3,412 bases of DNA from a virus (Duplodnaviria; Heunggongvirae; Uroviricota; Caudoviricetes), in the IMG/VR virus record IMGVR_UViG_2630968808_000007, positions 1 through 3,412 of that record. One strand, written 5' to 3'. The position numbers and the translations under genes were made by a program. Shown one piece after another: positions 1-3,412 of the stretch. Every line of letters starts with the position of its first letter. The stretch's first letter is position 1. The notes beneath the pieces were generated by a model. It searched no databases and was not told the origin of the DNA. It was given only the letters and a program-made list of their open reading frames with translations.

Positions 1-450
1 TCTGCGTTGCCTGTTGGCGTACCAGTTCCTTGGCCTTCAGCTACGCCGCCGACAGGCTGGCTGAAATGCAACGGGGCTGCTTTTTCGGCTGAAGAATACC
101 CGGAACTGGCAAAGGCTTACCCGACAAATAAATTGCCTGATTTACGCGGTGAATTTATTCGTGGCTGGGATGACGGACGTGGTGTGGATGCCGGGCGACA
201 ATTATTATCTTCACAGGGGGATGCAATAAGAAATATTGAGGGATTCGCAGATGGCGGGATCGGCATGTCTTTTGATGCAATCAGAGGGGCTTTTTACGAT
301 GCAGGAACACGATCAGCGACAATGGCGAATAACACAACTGCTATAGGCAAAACCGATGACCTTGGATTCGACGCCTCTCGTGTCGTGCCAACAGCTAATG
401 AAAACCGTCCACGTAACATCGCCTTTAATTATATTGTGAGGGCTGCATAA
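1..450 (+). CDS. Phage tail fibre protein, C-terminal variable receptor-binding domain (5'-truncated by the window edge; Sv-like half of an invertible segment)
   Basis: The frame is open from position 1 to a TAA at 448-450; the ORF track's M at 7 is a TTG, not a real start. The translation carries tail-fibre C-terminal hallmarks (GWLKCNGAAFSAEEYPELAKAY, LPDLRGEFIRGWDDGRGVDAGR, NENRPRNIAFNYIVRA) as in Mu S / P1 S / P2 H distal domains. The stop overlaps the start of the downstream tfa gene (TAATG). Confidence 0.85.
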   Translation, partial: SALPVGVPVPWPSATPPTGWLKCNGAAFSAEEYPELAKAYPTNKLPDLRGEFIRGWDDGRGVDAGRQLLSSQGDAIRNIEGFADGGIGMSFDAIRGAFYDAGTRSATMANNTTAIGKTDDLGFDASRVVPTANENRPRNIAFNYIVRAA

Positions 451-1043
451 TGAAACCTGTTTTTGATGAAAATGGGCTGGCTACAGTACCGGGTAATATG
501 CGTTGTTTTTATTATGAGGCAGTTACGTATGAATATACTGGCTGGTCTGATGAATATATTAATACTGGCGTAAGTATGCCCGCCTGTTCCACTGGTATTG
601 ACCCGGGCGAATGCATTCCGGGGAAAGTGGCAGTATTTACGGGTAAGGGATGGAGCCATGAAGAAGACCACCGCAATGAGACTGTTTACTCAATCGAAAA
701 TGGCGCAGCTGTTACAGTGGATTATATCGGTGCCATCAAAGACGGTTATGTCACGCTTTCACCGTTAACGCCATACGATAAATGGGATGGTGAGAAATGG
801 GTGACGGATACTGAGGCACAGCATAGTGCCGCAGTAGACGCGGCAGAAGCACAGCGCCAGTCGCTGATTGATGCAGCAATGGCTTCCATTAGTCTGATTC
901 AGCTGAAATTACGGGCCGGACGGAAGTTGACGCAGGCAGAAACAACCAGACTTAACGCTGTGCTGGATTACATTGACGCGGTGACGGCAACAGATACCAG
1001 CACCGCGCCGGATGTCATCTGGCCTGAACTGCCGGAGGCGTAG
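450..1043 (+). CDS. Tail fibre assembly protein (Tfa / Mu U-like chaperone)
   Basis: 197-aa ORF with ATG at 450-452 overlapping the upstream stop by 1 nt and a GAGGG Shine-Dalgarno at 438-442. The C-terminus (LNAVLDYIDAVTATDTSTAPDVIWPELP) is the conserved Tfa C-terminal motif. The position immediately after the fibre variable domain is canonical. Confidence 0.85.
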   Translation: MKPVFDENGLATVPGNMRCFYYEAVTYEYTGWSDEYINTGVSMPACSTGIDPGECIPGKVAVFTGKGWSHEEDHRNETVYSIENGAAVTVDYIGAIKDGYVTLSPLTPYDKWDGEKWVTDTEAQHSAAVDAAEAQRQSLIDAAMASISLIQLKLRAGRKLTQAETTRLNAVLDYIDAVTATDTSTAPDVIWPELPEA

Positions 1044-1455
1044 GCCATTCAATATCTGGTGCACTGGAGGTATCAACCAGCTCCAGTGCATCCAGATAAT
1101 CCAGCCACAAATTATATTGCGCCAGTTCCTCACCTTTCAGGCGACCAATCGCCGCTTTACCAGGCCATTGCTTACTGTTTATGTATTCGTTGACCTGATT
1201 AATCAATTGCTGCTTTTTCAGTTCGGCTGCGGCAATTTGTTCCTCATGAGTTGGCGGTGGAATATCAATCCATGCAGGCATTCCGTCGATGACACCTCTG
1301 TATTTTCCTTCTGGTGCTTCCTTCATAAATTCGGCAGCAACAGTGTCGTCAATTTCGATTCCATCATCGGGCCATTCGCCGGATTCCTGATAAGCGATTT
1401 TAAGCTCCACAGGGAAAAACGCATTTTTATCGGCACTGAAAATATATTTCTGCAT
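1015..1455 (-). CDS. Tail fibre assembly protein, alternative copy (Tfa' / U'-like), convergent with the + strand tfa
   Basis: 146-aa ORF on the minus strand with ATG at 1455-1453. Its C-terminus (LWLDYLDALELVDTSSAPDIEWPTPP) is a paralogous Tfa C-terminal motif, while the N-terminal part diverges from the + strand Tfa. It overlaps that gene tail-to-tail over 1015-1043. Confidence 0.85.
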   Translation of the reverse strand: MQKYIFSADKNAFFPVELKIAYQESGEWPDDGIEIDDTVAAEFMKEAPEGKYRGVIDGMPAWIDIPPPTHEEQIAAAELKKQQLINQVNEYINSKQWPGKAAIGRLKGEELAQYNLWLDYLDALELVDTSSAPDIEWPTPPAVQAR

Positions 1456-1457
1456 TT

Positions 1458-1828
1458 CTACCGTCCTATCGAAATATAACTGAATCTGTATTGCTGTGAG
1501 ATATCACTGGTTGCCACACGCCACGCTGAATTACTGATATGTTCAAAATTTACAGACAAAACCTGCGGGGCAGGATTCGACGGGTCTGACTGAACGGCAT
1601 CAGACATAACACTGACTGAAACCATCGGCTGATTAGGGAATGGTATAGGGAAGTGTCCACTGATAAAGCGGGTTGTGTTTCCTGAAAAAGTGCCAAACTG
1701 AACAATATATCCACCTGGTAGCCTGAACCATCCCGAACCAGAAGCGAATGCTCCCATATCCGGTATCTGATTATCTCCTGTGCCCACATTCCGTTTTGCC
1801 GCTTCTCCCAAACCAATGTTTTTGAGAA
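1458..1828 (-). CDS. Alternative tail fibre C-terminal variable cassette (Sv'-like), promoterless and start-less in this orientation; expressed only after inversion fuses it to the constant fibre N-terminus
   Basis: Open frame on the minus strand ending at the stop at 1460-1458, 2 nt upstream of the tfa' start. It has a Gly/Ser-rich fibre-tip-like composition (GAFASGSGWFRLPGGYIVQFGTFSGNT). The frame runs through the crossover site at 1803-1828, which encodes ILKNIGLGE. The ORF-track extension to 1883 begins with TTG and is unlikely to be a real start. Confidence 0.7.
1803..1828. promoter_or_regulatory. Crossover site (gix/hix/cix/pix-type) for the DNA invertase; right boundary of the invertible segment
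   Basis: TTCTCCCAAACCAATGTTTTTGAGAA is a 12-2-12 imperfect palindrome. It matches the recalled hixL sequence TTCTTGAAAACCAAGGTTTTTGATAA at most positions, including the AAACC / GTTT cores and the central AA. It lies 55 bp upstream of the invertase start and inside the N-terminal end of the silent fibre cassette, as in Mu G and P1 C segments. Confidence 0.7.
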
Positions 1829-1882
1829 TGACCATTCTGCTCACTAGTGGCATGCTTTCTGCTTTTTGCAGGGGATAAAACA

Positions 1883-2443
1883 ATGCTTATTGGTTATGTG
1901 AGAGTGTCAACAAATGACCAGAACACCGCATTACAGAGAAATGCGCTCGATAGCGCAGGATGTGAACTGATTTTTGAAGATAAGATAAGCGGAAAGACCT
2001 CGGAGAGGCCGGGGCTCAAAAAGGTACTCCGTATCTTGTCGGAGGGAGACACGCTGGTGGTCTGGAAACTCGATCGGCTCGGTAGAAGCATGCGGCATCT
2101 TGTCGTTCTGGTGGAGGAGCTGCGAGAGCGGGGCATTAATTTTCGCAGCCTGACCGACAGCATAGACACGTCTACGCCGATGGGCCGATTCTTCTTTCAT
2201 GTTATGGGGGCTTTGGCAGAAATGGAAAGAGAGCTCATTGTTGAACGCACCCGGGCGGGTTTAGCAGCTGCGCGAGCAAAAGGGCGGATCGGCGGTCGCA
2301 GGCCCAAATTAACGGATGAGCAATGGGCGCAGGCAGGGAGATTGATCTCAGCAGGGGAATCTCGCCAGCGTGTGGCAATAATTTACGACGTAGGGGTTTC
2401 AACACTCTACCGAAAATTTCCGGTAGGTAGTGGTAAGACATAA
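1883..2443 (+). CDS. Site-specific DNA invertase, small serine recombinase of the Gin/Cin/Pin/Hin family
   Basis: ATG at 1883 preceded by GGGGA (1871-1875). The N-terminus MLIGYVRVSTNDQNT carries the catalytic Ser, and VVWKLDRLGRS, GINFRSLTDSIDTS, MGRFFFHVMGALAEMERELIVERT and the C-terminal HTH (VAIIYDVGVSTLYRKF) are nearly identical to recalled Gin/Pin sequences. The ORF-track start at 1847 is a GTG and is unlikely. Stop TAA at 2441-2443. The exact family member cannot be assigned from memory. Confidence 0.95.
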   Translation: MLIGYVRVSTNDQNTALQRNALDSAGCELIFEDKISGKTSERPGLKKVLRILSEGDTLVVWKLDRLGRSMRHLVVLVEELRERGINFRSLTDSIDTSTPMGRFFFHVMGALAEMERELIVERTRAGLAAARAKGRIGGRRPKLTDEQWAQAGRLISAGESRQRVAIIYDVGVSTLYRKFPVGSGKT

Positions 2444-2444
2444 T

Positions 2445-2479
2445 GCAGGCCGCCAGTGAATATTGAAGCTGGCAGCCTG
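2445..2479. terminator. Candidate bidirectional intrinsic terminator between convergent invertase and DinI-like genes
   Basis: GC-rich hairpin: arm 2446-2456 (CAGGCCGCCAG) pairs with 2469-2479 (CTGGCAGCCTG), 10 of 11 bp, with a 12-nt loop. It sits in the 43-bp gap between the two stop codons. There is a short T run after it on the + strand and a moderately U-rich stretch after it on the - strand. Confidence 0.4.
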
Positions 2480-2486
2480 AACCATT

Positions 2487-2753
2487 TTACAGCCCAGCTT
2501 GGCGAACCGTCGGGAATTCAGACACCAGCCACATATCGGCCTCTTCAAACATTTCCTCCAGCATTCGATTCAACTTTTCCCGATCGCTTTTGCTGGCATC
2601 ACTATTCAAGCCGTTCGCCTGCATCGGCTTTACCTTCACTTCGGCATCAGGAAAAATCTTGTGCACCCGCTTTGTTAGCTCAGCTAGGATGATCTCTCCG
2701 GCCCCCTGGAGCCCCTCAACATTTCGCTTGTCATAAACCAGTTCAACAAACAT
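2487..2753 (-). CDS. DinI-family protein (SOS-inducible RecA modulator homolog), 88 aa
   Basis: ATG at 2753-2751 with an AGAGGA Shine-Dalgarno 5-6 nt upstream. The translation MFVELVYDK...ELTKRVHKIFPD...MLEEMFEEADMWLVSE aligns with recalled E. coli DinI (MRIEVTIAK...ELSRRIQYAFPD...ILQETWESADDWFVSE). The ORF-track extension to 3104 would run through the promoter and LexA box and is rejected. A LexA box lies in the promoter. Confidence 0.85.
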   Translation of the reverse strand: MFVELVYDKRNVEGLQGAGEIILAELTKRVHKIFPDAEVKVKPMQANGLNSDASKSDREKLNRMLEEMFEEADMWLVSEFPTVRQAGL

Positions 2754-2776
2754 ACCGATCCTCTTAAAAGTGAAAA

Positions 2777-2804
2777 TTGCCTGTGCTTGATCTGTTTTTA
2801 TAAA
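2777..2804 (+). promoter_or_regulatory. Candidate sigma70 promoter for the rightward two-gene operon
   Basis: TTGCCT (2777-2782), a 16-nt spacer, and TATAAA (2799-2804). The LexA box begins 8 bp downstream, where it would block initiation. The assignment is weaker than for the leftward promoter and alternative -10 registers exist. Confidence 0.35.
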
Positions 2805-2831
2805 AATACAACTGTATATGTATACAGTCAA
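2803..2831 (-). promoter_or_regulatory. Candidate sigma70 promoter of the DinI-like gene, with the LexA box in its spacer
   Basis: On the minus strand: -35 TTGACT (plus 2831-2826), a 17-nt spacer, and -10 TATTTT (plus 2808-2803). The LexA box at 2812-2827 fills the spacer and overlaps the -35. Confidence 0.5.
2812..2827. promoter_or_regulatory. LexA operator (SOS box)
   Basis: CTGTATATGTATACAG is a perfect CTGT-N8-ACAG palindrome with an AT-rich centre, matching the consensus TACTGTATATATATACAGTA. It lies in the 99-bp divergent intergenic region between the DinI-like gene and the 2853 operon. Confidence 0.85.
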
Positions 2832-2852
2832 TGAGCGAGTGAGGGTGCGTTT

Positions 2853-3092
2853 ATGCCTCGTCAACCGGATATTCGTGCTGCTTTTATTGCGGCCATACAG
2901 CAAAACCCGAAGGGCTATCTCTGTCTGCATACAGACAAGTTCATCGCTGAACTGCAGGAGAGGCACTGGCATTTCAGCCAGGCGGATGCAAATACATGGA
3001 TCGAGCGATACCAGCCGGACTTCGCCGATAAGACGACAAACGGCAGCGAGAACCGGTACTGGATCCTGCGTAACATGGGGAGGGTTTTCTAA
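2853..3092 (+). CDS. Hypothetical 79-aa protein, first gene of a LexA-controlled operon; function unknown
   Basis: ATG at 2853 with a GAGGG Shine-Dalgarno at 2841-2845 (7-nt spacing). Its stop TAA (3090-3092) overlaps the next gene's ATG (TAATG), indicating translational coupling. I recognise no family; the protein is Trp/His-rich and non-hydrophobic. Confidence 0.6.
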   Translation: MPRQPDIRAAFIAAIQQNPKGYLCLHTDKFIAELQERHWHFSQADANTWIERYQPDFADKTTNGSENRYWILRNMGRVF

Positions 3093-3412
3093 TGGGATTT
3101 CCATCGCCAGCCATGGATTACCAGGAGCAGCGCATGACGATAGATGTTATCTGCGGTGTAGACAACAACTGCCGGGTTATTGAAACTTCATGCGGCTGGG
3201 CCGTTATTAACGTCAGTCTGAAGCCAGAAAGAGGGGATACGTTGCTGGTTAGCATGGATGGGAGAAACCAGTTTGTGAAGCTACTGGGTCAGGCACTGAT
3301 AACGGAAGAGGGTGAGGCGATCGAAGGAGAAGCCTTGAATGATGTTACGGTGCACGGCGTTCTTACACATACGCTTAACCAAGTTAAAGACGATAAATCG
3401 CCTGTAATGTAG
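3092..3412 (+). CDS. UmuD'-like protein (LexA/UmuD S24-peptidase C-domain homolog lacking the N-terminal arm; HumD-like), 106 aa
   Basis: ATG at 3092 with GGAGG at 3079-3083 (8-nt spacing). The N-terminus M-GFPSPAMDYQEQR matches UmuD residues directly after the Cys24-Gly25 cleavage site (GFPSPAADYVEQR, recalled). Further similarity: GDTLLV vs GDLLIV, DGRNQFVKLL vs DGEFTVKKLQ, VTVHGVLTHTL vs LDVFGVVIHVV. The stop TAG falls at 3410-3412, the window end. Confidence 0.75.
   Translation: MGFPSPAMDYQEQRMTIDVICGVDNNCRVIETSCGWAVINVSLKPERGDTLLVSMDGRNQFVKLLGQALITEEGEAIEGEALNDVTVHGVLTHTLNQVKDDKSPVM

What the first reader, a model, noticed from the sequence alone, without database searches (positions are those of the whole stretch)
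2853..3092. Unrecognised 79-aa protein translationally coupled to the UmuD'-like gene
The ORF has a good Shine-Dalgarno and its stop overlaps the downstream ATG (TAATG), so the two products are probably made in fixed ratio. I cannot place the sequence MPRQPDIRAAFIAAIQQNPKGYLCLHTDKFIAELQERHWHFSQADANTWIERYQPDFADKTTNGSENRYWILRNMGRVF in any family I know. Candidate roles, all speculative: a partner or chaperone of the UmuD'-like protein, or a small LexA-controlled antirepressor of the kind known from 186 (Tum) and Gifsy-type prophages.
Basis: inference. Interest (0 to 1): 0.55.

Follow-up and report, generated by a model that had tools for sequence, protein, structure and literature searches.

The report
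SOS-controlled winged-helix partner of UmuD'
The 79-residue ORF is a real, DNA-damage-inducible small winged-helix protein of unknown function, found on phages, more than a thousand plasmids and some chromosomes, almost always as the first gene in front of a pre-processed UmuD'-like or UmuC (error-prone polymerase V) gene; it is therefore most likely an undescribed accessory factor of that repair module, not a prophage antirepressor.

Summary
ORF 2853-3092 encodes the stated 79 aa. It has a GAGGG Shine-Dalgarno, and its TAA overlaps the ATG of the next gene (TAATG). A near-perfect LexA box (2812-2827) lies 26-41 nt upstream of the ATG.

The gene is real: dN/dS is 0.04-0.13, and AF2 gives pLDDT 91.

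It has no Pfam or NCBIfam family. It is PHROG 3893 ("unknown"); NCBI often names members "DNA polymerase V", apparently by association. The fold is a winged helix.

The downstream protein is a true UmuD' relative that has lost the Ser/Lys dyad.

In a one-genome-per-species survey of 57 intact homologues:
- 52 have a LexA box.
- 41 are followed within -14..+4 nt by a UmuD'-type gene, 1 by umuC, and 1 by full-length umuDC.

The family also sits on about 1,030-1,100 plasmids, including the IncX3 blaNDM-5 backbone.

I found no similarity to Tum, a Gifsy antirepressor or LexA. Carrier phages with 86-96% identical copies have self-cleaving, heteroimmune CI repressors, which argues against an antirepressor.

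Best reading (about 0.45): an accessory or regulatory partner of mobile UmuD'/Pol V modules. The biochemical function is untested.

The parts
2487..2753 (-). DinI-like gene (88 aa), transcribed divergently from the same LexA-controlled intergenic region
   Evidence: Pfam PF06183 DinI, E 3.4e-23. PHROG 189. Annotated 'DinI family protein' in the 99.9% identical E. coli record. A minus-strand promoter-like site, TTGACT-17-TATTTT (2831-2803), straddles the LexA box.
2787..2792 (+). Conserved TTGATC, inferred -35 element of the ORF79 operon promoter. The inferred -10 (A/T)ACTGT follows 17 nt later at 2810-2815 and overlaps the LexA box.
   Evidence: TTGATC lies at a fixed distance of about 19-20 nt from the LexA box in nearly all of about 70 aligned upstream regions. 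Its promoter function is inferred, not shown.
2812..2827 (.). LexA (SOS) box CTGTATATGTATACAG
   Evidence: It is the only zero-mismatch CTGT-N8-ACAG in the window. A box at 30-42 nt from the start codon is present in 52 of 57 intact homologues, often identical to the E. coli umuDC box CTGTATATAAAAACAG as I recall it.
2841..2847 (+). Shine-Dalgarno of ORF79 (GAGGGTG)
   Evidence: Read from the sequence. SD-like purine runs sit at the same place in homologues.
2853..3092 (+). ORF79: a 79-aa winged-helix protein, first gene of the SOS operon
3079..3083 (+). GGAGG Shine-Dalgarno of the downstream gene, embedded in ORF79 codons 76-77
   Evidence: An SD-like motif sits 4-16 nt before the partner's start in 39 of 43 coupled pairs. 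This explains part of the conservation of the disordered C-terminal tail (NMGRV / NPNGG).
3092..3412 (+). Mini-UmuD' (106 aa): a pre-processed, catalytically dead S24-fold protein. After Met removal it would begin GFPSPA, like cleaved UmuD'.
   Evidence: PHROG 3469 'UmuD-like', E 5e-47. NCBIfam HumD, partial. Profile vs PDB UmuD/UmuD', E 2.5e-6, with the Ser60 loop deleted and Lys97 replaced by V/A. AF2 pLDDT 77. Foldseek best hits are LexA CTD and UmuD'. pI about 4.3-4.5.

Best explanation
ORF79 is the promoter-proximal gene of a LexA-repressed two-gene operon carried as a cassette by temperate phages, conjugative plasmids and some enterobacterial chromosomes.

Shown:
- It is a genuine protein under purifying selection.
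- It folds as a compact winged-helix domain, roughly neutral in charge, with an acidic wing tip.
- It is controlled by a umuDC-type promoter and SOS box.
- It is translationally coupled to whatever follows. That is nearly always a UmuD'-type protein lacking the N-terminal 24 residues (a 106-aa 'mini' form or a 125-130-aa HumD-like form, both without the Ser/Lys dyad), and occasionally UmuC itself or full-length umuDC.

Inferred:
- After DNA damage LexA is cleaved, and the two proteins are made together in roughly fixed proportion.
- ORF79 then acts by protein-protein contact as an accessory or regulatory partner of the UmuD'/polymerase V translesion-synthesis module.
- The same ORF79 subfamily pairs with different UmuD' bodies, while the GFPSPAxDY arm is the most conserved part of every partner. 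The most likely contact is therefore that arm, or UmuC/RecA*, rather than the S24 body.
- It would modulate assembly, stability or activation of a Pol V-like complex built from the element's ready-made UmuD' and host UmuC.
- This would help damaged phage or plasmid DNA to be replicated after SOS induction.

Functional precedents are ImpC (a DinI homologue, first gene of impCAB) and Acinetobacter DdrR (78-81 aa, binds UmuDAb).
For: - Anatomy.
- Real gene.
- Winged-helix fold.
- The partner is a dead UmuD'.
- Synteny in a one-genome-per-species scan: of 57 intact homologues, 52 have a LexA box; 29 are followed by mini-UmuD', 12 by HumD-like, 1 by UmuC and 1 by full UmuD-UmuC; gaps run from -14 to +4 nt.
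- ORF79-umuC coupling in L041, and ORF79-umuC-miniUmuD' in L013.
- ORF79 sits just upstream of chromosomal umuDC, with a near-duplicate promoter, in Pantoea.
- Phages of six genera share the pair.
- About 1,030-1,100 plasmids carry it, including the IncX3 backbone, again with an S24 gene directly downstream.
- The same ORF79 subfamily pairs with different UmuD' types, and recombination joints fall at the gene boundary.
- Conserved basic surface residues on ORF79 face a very acidic partner.
- Precedent for a small protein that binds a UmuD homologue: DdrR (PMC7273328, PMC11332147).
Against: - No physical-interaction evidence.
- The association is not obligate in either direction. 14 of 57 homologues have no UmuD'/UmuC gene within about 150 nt, and HK225 keeps ORF79 alone. 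30 of 80 viral contigs with a mini-UmuD' lack ORF79.
- Linkage could partly reflect shared descent of a promoter-plus-gene cassette rather than a joint function.
- Winged helices are most often DNA-binding. K/R44, N47, R58 and R68 are conserved on the face that usually binds DNA.
Confidence: 0.45

Rival explanations
1. ORF79 is a sequence-specific DNA-binding regulator. This SOS-induced winged-helix transcription factor would feed back on the operon or other SOS/element promoters, possibly binding DNA together with the S24-fold partner as a two-chain LexA-like or UmuDAb-like repressor.
For: - The winged-helix fold's nearest structural neighbours are nucleic-acid binders: PefI, Sso10a, PadR, ArsR, Fur.
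- Conserved T27, K/R44, N47, R58 and R68 lie on the canonical DNA-binding face.
- The architecture, wH followed by an S24 domain starting exactly at the post-cleavage Gly, mirrors LexA/UmuDAb.
- DdrR acts as a co-repressor with UmuDAb (PMC7273328).
Against: - Net charge is about 0 and the wing tip is acidic, with E64 and E66 conserved.
- No conserved operator other than the LexA box and promoter in about 70 aligned upstream regions.
- At 79 aa it has no evident dimerisation element.
- An exhaustive profile search found no fused wH-S24 homologue.
Confidence: 0.2
2. ORF79 has an element-specific SOS-induced function unrelated to UmuD' (for example anti-defence, host takeover or division control). 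It merely shares a LexA-controlled promoter with the UmuD' gene because both need SOS timing.
For: - The cassette sits in classic moron or accessory positions: between tail fibre and integrase/att, and in plasmid accessory regions.
- Each gene can occur without the other.
- umu-like genes flank plasmid anti-defence islands, and their role there is called unclear (PMC11541004).
Against: - The partner set is narrow: UmuD' mini, HumD-like, UmuD, UmuC. It persists down to about 30% identity across phages, plasmids and chromosomes.
- Tight translational coupling with an embedded SD is conserved.
- No PADLOC hit.
Confidence: 0.2
3. ORF79 is a LexA-controlled antirepressor of the Tum / GfoA-GftA type. 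It would bind the prophage repressor and trigger induction.
For: - It is small, LexA-repressed and next to a DinI homologue near the prophage end, as in 186 tum and the Gifsy dinI-antirepressor operons (PMC3121763).
- phiES15, a UV-induced carrier, has a short 134-aa repressor without an S24 domain.
Against: - No sequence or profile similarity to Tum or the Gifsy-1 antirepressor.
- The window's prophage, mEp390, HK225 and Flotzy have self-cleaving HTH+S24 CI repressors.
- Those CIs are about 21% identical, while ORF79 is 86-96% identical between the same phages.
- The family is abundant on conjugative plasmids and beside chromosomal umuDC.
Confidence: 0.07

Closest known systems
DdrR of Acinetobacter (78-81 aa co-repressor that binds the UmuD homologue UmuDAb)
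   Same: Both are small (78-81 aa against 79-80 aa) and DNA-damage-inducible. Both are always encoded next to a UmuD-family S24 protein, have no Pfam family and are genus- or order-restricted. DdrR is reported to bind UmuDAb directly (PMC7273328, PMC11332147).
   Different: ddrR is transcribed divergently from umuDAb, whereas ORF79 is co-directional and translationally coupled. UmuDAb is a cleavable repressor with its own DNA-binding N-terminal domain; the partner here is a dead, N-terminally truncated UmuD'. Homology could not be tested because no DdrR sequence was available to the tools.
ImpC of the impCAB operon (DinI family) and DinI
   Same: ImpC is a small LexA-regulated first gene in front of a mobile UmuD/UmuC-type operon, and DinI proteins modulate RecA*/UmuD processing (my own knowledge, and PMC3121763 for DinI/Tum). 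A DinI homologue is part of this locus, divergent, at 2487-2753.
   Different: ORF79 has no DinI Pfam hit and has a winged-helix fold, not the DinI fold.
P1 HumD / N15 gp26 (stand-alone pre-processed UmuD' homologues of phages)
   Same: The downstream gene belongs to the same idea: a phage-borne, LexA-controlled UmuD' that lacks the N-terminal arm. N15 gp26 sits at the same position, after the tail-fibre gene. HumD is reported to complement UmuD' (McLenigan 1999, as cited in PMC11541004).
   Different: N15 gp26 has no ORF79-like gene in front of it, and tblastn of ORF79 against the phage collection listed no P1 record among its 47 hits. The mini form here is about 20 residues shorter and lacks the Ser/Lys dyad.
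Tum (phage 186) and GfoA/GftA (Gifsy) LexA-controlled antirepressors
   Same: They are small, LexA-repressed, associated with a DinI homologue and located outside the immunity region (PMC3121763).
   Different: No detectable homology. Carrier phages mostly have self-cleaving CI. The family is widespread outside prophages.
LexA N-terminal winged-helix domain / GIL01 gp7-LexA
   Same: A winged helix placed directly N-terminal, here in trans, to an S24 domain that begins at the cleavage-site Gly. gp7 is a precedent for a small phage protein binding an S24-family protein (cited in PMC11332147).
   Different: No PF01726 hit and hhalign probability of 0.1% vs LexA. No fused relatives were found.

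Membership tests
PHROG 3893 (phage protein family, function unknown) | Full-length HMM match | tested here: met
   E 1.3e-41, residues 1-78 of 79.
Winged-helix fold | H1-b1-H2-H3-b2-wing-b3 topology and structural similarity to solved winged-helix domains | tested here: met
LexA DNA-binding domain (PF01726) | Sequence or profile similarity to the LexA N-terminal domain | tested here: not met
Tum (186) antirepressor | Homology to the Tum N-terminal half | tested here: not met
   hhalign probability 0.08%.
Gifsy GfoA/GftA antirepressors | Homology to the 73-aa antirepressor encoded after dinI in Gifsy-1 | tested here: not met
   hhalign probability 0.3%.
LexA-controlled antirepressor (functional class) | LexA box in the promoter | tested here: met
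   Perfect box at 2812-2827, conserved in 52 of 57 homologues.
LexA-controlled antirepressor (functional class) | The carrier prophage relies on a non-cleavable repressor and the antirepressor tracks immunity type | tested here: not met
   The window's prophage and mEp390 CIs have HTH plus Peptidase_S24. HK225 and Flotzy CIs carry GDSM. The CIs are about 21% identical while ORF79 is 86-96% identical. phiES15 is an exception, with a 134-aa repressor.
LexA-controlled antirepressor (functional class) | Binds the repressor and induces the prophage | not testable with these tools
   Needs an expression and induction assay.
DinI / ImpC family | PF06183 match | tested here: not met
   No hit for ORF79. 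The neighbouring minus-strand gene is the DinI homologue.
DdrR (Acinetobacter) | Sequence homology to DdrR and binding to a UmuD-family protein | not tested
Only the analogy is documented (PMC7273328).
UmuD'/Peptidase S24 (downstream gene) | Homology and fold of the S24 C-terminal domain | tested here: met
   Profile vs UmuD/UmuD', E 2.5e-6 over the full length. Foldseek best hits are LexA CTD and UmuD' with TM 0.5-0.63. There is no Pfam PF00717 hit for the single sequence.
UmuD'/Peptidase S24 (downstream gene) | Ser-Lys catalytic dyad | tested here: not met
   The Ser60 loop is deleted and the Lys97 position is V/A in the alignment to 8gmt/1umu. The dyad is not needed by a protein that is already 'cleaved'.
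Polymerase V accessory factor (functional class proposed here) | Conserved operonic linkage with umuD'/umuC under LexA control | tested here: met
Polymerase V accessory factor (functional class proposed here) | Physical or functional interaction with UmuD', UmuC or RecA* | not testable with these tools

The most novel reading that the evidence does not exclude
ORF79 and the dead UmuD'-like protein assemble non-covalently into a 'genetically pre-cleaved' LexA/UmuDAb-like particle, with the winged helix in trans to an S24 dimerisation domain that starts at the cleavage-site Gly. Mobile elements would deploy it after LexA destruction for one of two purposes. Either it acts as an uncleavable regulator that re-occupies SOS-type operators, or it acts as a third subunit that changes how host UmuC is activated, for example by bypassing the slow RecA*-dependent UmuD processing and checkpoint. 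If so, it would be a previously unrecognised component of SOS mutagenesis, carried by IncX3 carbapenemase plasmids and many prophages.
Probability: 0.12. Interest if true: 0.8.

Novelty: new variant of a known kind. Interest (0 to 1): 0.6.

Why it matters
Mobile UmuD'/UmuC genes are common on plasmids and phages, and their role there is still described as unclear (PMC11541004). This work shows that a very widespread cassette is a two-gene unit, not a lone 'umuD'. It is present in temperate phages of at least six enterobacterial genera, in about 1,000 plasmids including the IncX3 blaNDM-5 backbone, and in chromosomes. Its first product is an uncharacterised SOS-regulated winged-helix protein.

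If that protein modulates polymerase V assembly or activity, it bears on stress-induced mutagenesis, on survival of induced prophages, and on how resistance plasmids behave under DNA-damaging antibiotics.

There is also a practical annotation point. The family is either left unannotated (mEp390), called hypothetical, or misnamed 'DNA polymerase V'.

Tried and rejected
- Curated family assignment: Pfam, NCBIfam and PADLOC gave nothing above noise. Scanning all 143 members against Pfam gave only sub-threshold WVELL/DUF7669 hits.
- PDB sequence search with the family profile: nothing.
- BFVD fold search: only the HK225 orthologue. The AFDB50 library was unavailable.
- Homology to LexA, Tum and the Gifsy antirepressor: rejected.
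- Rosetta-stone fusions: the longer ORFs from the exhaustive search (P0278, P0300, P0359, P0374) are frameshift or deletion products. P0331 is a read-through into umuC on an error-prone long-read contig. It was useful for synteny but is not a true fusion.
- A second operator for ORF79 in upstream regions: none beyond the promoter and LexA box.
- Rfam: only a chance sub-threshold match.
- Beta-clamp-binding motif in the C-terminal 'FQLF': rejected by inspection, because it lies in strand b3 and is absent from the window's subfamily.
- Crossover sites of the invertible tail-fibre segment: not located.
- Literature searches for any functional study of this gene in phages or IncX3 plasmids: none found.

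Full report
**Context.** The window is the right end of a temperate prophage with a Mu/SfV-type contractile tail. Bases 2400-3412 are 99.9% identical to E. coli strain 1500, where the prophage lies next to ssrA. From left to right it holds:
- a tail-fibre tip and its chaperone (7-1043, +);
- an alternative chaperone and tip on the other strand (1015-1883, -);
- a Pin/Cin-type serine invertase (1883-2443, +);
- a DinI homologue (2487-2753, -);
- a short intergenic region;
- the ORF in question (2853-3092, +);
- a 106-aa ORF (3092-3412, +) that ends the window.

**The observation.** The ORF encodes the quoted 79 residues. A GAGGG Shine-Dalgarno core sits 7 nt before the ATG. The TAA stop shares its last A with the ATG of the next gene. 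Two features were not listed. A perfect CTGT-N8-ACAG LexA box lies at 2812-2827, so it starts 41 nt and ends 26 nt upstream of the ATG. The Shine-Dalgarno of the downstream gene (GGAGG, 3079-3083) is embedded in the last codons of ORF79.

**The ORF is a real gene.**
- dN/dS is 0.04 against mEp390 and 0.08-0.13 in other unsaturated pairs.
- Homologues keep a length of 79-80 aa down to about 30% identity.
- 743 clusters at 90% identity match the family profile.
- The exact protein is recorded on 320 contigs.
- AlphaFold2 with a 143-sequence alignment gives pLDDT 91 and pTM 0.81.

**What the protein is.** It has no Pfam, NCBIfam or PADLOC family. It belongs to PHROG 3893, 'unknown function'. NCBI and UniRef call many members 'DNA polymerase V'. 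That name cannot be literal for a 79-residue protein and most likely comes from its neighbours. An exhaustive profile search of 1.84 billion representative proteins found only 208 matches, so the family is narrow; all homologues that carry an organism name are Enterobacterales.

**What the neighbour is.** The 106-aa product is a genuine UmuD' relative. A profile of 104 homologues aligns over the full length to UmuD/UmuD' (8gmt, 1umu) at E 2.5e-6. Its model (pLDDT 77) best matches LexA C-terminal domains and UmuD'. It starts MGFPSPAxDY, so after Met removal it would begin at the Gly that becomes the N-terminus of UmuD' after RecA*-stimulated cleavage. The loop carrying Ser60 is deleted and Lys97 is replaced by V/A. 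It is therefore a ready-made, non-catalytic UmuD'. It is very acidic, with pI about 4.3-4.5.

**Conserved neighbourhood in phages.** tblastn found the family in 47 phage records of Escherichia, Klebsiella, Enterobacter, Erwinia, Cronobacter and Pantoea. In every one inspected, ORF79 is preceded by a LexA box 30-42 nt from its start. It is followed within a few bases by an MGFPSPA... gene, typically between the tail-fibre genes and integrase/att.

**Conserved neighbourhood in genomes.** A one-genome-per-species scan returned 66 loci, of which 57 homologues are intact:
- 52 have a CTGT-N8-ACAG box within 70 nt.
- 29 are followed by a mini-UmuD' and 12 by a 115-135-aa HumD-like UmuD'.
- 1 is followed directly by umuC, and 1 by full-length umuD-umuC after 65 nt.
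- 14 have nothing recognisable within 150 nt.
- Gaps between the coupled genes run from -14 to +4 nt, and 39 of 43 have an SD inside the ORF79 3' end.

**Variants of the arrangement.** In a Pantoea allii prophage the arrangement is LexA box-ORF79-umuC with a 1-nt overlap. In a metagenomic contig it is ORF79-umuC-mini-UmuD'. In several Pantoea/Erwinia genome contigs ORF79 lies 65 nt to 3 kb upstream of umuDC. In L045 it stands alone, with its own box and terminator, just upstream of umuDC, whose promoter is a near-duplicate of its own.

**Promoter.** The promoter architecture TTGATC-17 nt-(T/A)ACTGT, with the box over the -10, is conserved. Many boxes are identical to what I recall as the E. 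coli umuDC box.

**Plasmids.** The family is on about 1,030-1,100 PLSDB plasmids, 947-956 of them conjugative. These include the 46,161-bp IncX3 blaNDM-5 backbone, where an S24 gene again follows at +2 nt.

**The linkage is strong but not obligate.** HK225 keeps DinI, the LexA box and ORF79 (96% identical), but an invertase follows instead of UmuD'. A separate phage group carries a mini-UmuD' alone, behind its own LexA box, next to the terminase genes; this accounts for 30 of 80 viral contigs. N15 gp26, a HumD-type protein, also stands alone. Within the window's own ORF79 subfamily (81-97% identical), the partner is a mini-UmuD' in the window, mEp390 and Flotzy, a 129-aa HumD-like protein in HK140 and ABWA45, or none in HK225. 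Similarity between relatives breaks at the gene boundary. If ORF79 touches its partner, the conserved N-terminal arm is a better candidate than the variable S24 body.

**Testing the antirepressor idea.** The setting does recall 186 Tum and the Gifsy dinI-antirepressor operons (PMC3121763). However:
- ORF79 shows no profile similarity to Tum or to the Gifsy-1 antirepressor.
- The window's prophage and mEp390 have CI repressors with HTH plus Peptidase_S24 domains. HK225 and Flotzy CIs also carry the GDSM motif. These phages can therefore sense RecA* by themselves.
- Their CIs are about 21% identical, while their ORF79 copies are 86-96% identical.
- The family thrives on plasmids and beside chromosomal umuDC.

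One carrier, phiES15, does have a short 134-aa repressor. The idea is therefore disfavoured, not excluded.

**Most likely mechanism.** Shown: a LexA-repressed, translationally coupled pair made of a winged-helix protein and a dead, pre-processed UmuD'. Inferred: after LexA cleavage both are made together, and ORF79 works by protein-protein contact as an accessory or regulator of the UmuD'/Pol V module that the element builds with host UmuC. The divergent DinI homologue plausibly tunes RecA* in parallel. The closest functional precedents are Acinetobacter DdrR (78-81 aa, always beside umuDAb, binds it; PMC7273328, PMC11332147) and ImpC, the DinI-like first gene of impCAB (my own knowledge). I put this at about 0.45. 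The rivals are a DNA-binding regulator (0.2), an unrelated SOS-timed element function (0.2), an antirepressor (0.07), and not translated or no function (about 0.02). No paper in the searchable library addresses this gene.

**Verdict.** The family is known only as sequence and is frequently mis-annotated or un-annotated. Its fold, its SOS control and its near-constant coupling to UmuD'/UmuC on phages, plasmids and chromosomes do not appear to have been described. I rate it a new variant of a known kind, namely the small accessory proteins of UmuD-family modules, with interest 0.6.

Noticed in passing
window 2487-2827: A DinI-family gene (88 aa, minus strand) is transcribed divergently from the ORF79 operon. 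A single near-perfect LexA box (2812-2827) lies between the -35 and -10 of the predicted dinI promoter (TTGACT-17-TATTTT) and over the inferred -10 of the plus-strand promoter. One LexA dimer probably controls both.
   Followed up: partly
window 1-2443: Host-range switching cassette. Two tail-fibre tip and assembly-chaperone sets sit in opposite orientation (7-1043 + and 1015-1883 -), next to a Pin/Cin/Gin-type serine invertase (1883-2443). The crossover sites were not found within the window.
   Followed up: partly
L169 (IncX3 blaNDM-5 plasmid NZ_CP032889.1) 3400-4840: In the common 46,161-bp IncX3 NDM-5 backbone, ISKox3 has replaced the left half of the LexA box in front of the ORF79 homologue. 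IS26 truncates the downstream UmuD'-like gene to 118 aa. SOS control of the cassette is therefore probably lost in these clinically important plasmids.
   Followed up: partly
L041 4001-5502 (Pantoea allii prophage); L013 3894-5647: The ORF79 homologue is translationally coupled directly to a full-length umuC (420 aa, 1-nt overlap), with no UmuD' in between. In L013 the order is ORF79-umuC-mini-UmuD'.
   Followed up: partly
L045 690-1480 (also L033, L049, L051, L052): In several Pantoea/Erwinia genome contigs an ORF79 homologue with its own LexA box lies upstream of umuDC. In L045 it also has its own terminator, and the ORF79 and umuD promoter regions are near-duplicates. In L051 only 65 nt and no second box separate ORF79 from full-length umuD.
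   Followed up: partly
L111-L164 (30 viral contigs), around position 2460-2830 of each: A different phage group carries a 109-aa mini-UmuD' without ORF79, behind its own LexA box (CTGTTTAAAT[A/G]TACAG) and immediately upstream of a terminase small-subunit-like gene.
   Followed up: partly
L084 18059-18376 (same prophage as the window, E. coli strain 1500): A 106-aa protein consists only of a LexA DNA-binding domain (PF01726, E 2.8e-19) and is encoded in the nin-like region. It is a LexA N-terminal-domain mimic with no cleavage domain. mEp390 gp43 is a likely counterpart, judged from its position and from both records' similarity to SfV genes.
   Followed up: no
L002 5355-5594 (phage mEp390, NC_019721): The RefSeq record does not annotate the ORF79 homologue (86% identical). 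Instead it calls a 42-aa ORF on the opposite strand. In other records the family is named 'DNA polymerase V'. Both need correction.
   Followed up: yes
L001 10168-10986 (just beyond the window's right end): A 272-aa hypothetical protein (minus strand) with no Pfam domain lies between the UmuD'-like gene and ssrA, at the prophage/att boundary.
   Followed up: no
window 2487-3104 (-): The mechanical ORF list shows a 205-aa minus-strand ORF that extends the DinI gene upstream across the intergenic region and antisense to ORF79. The extension has no support: PGAP and the Pfam match both start DinI at 2753.
   Followed up: yes
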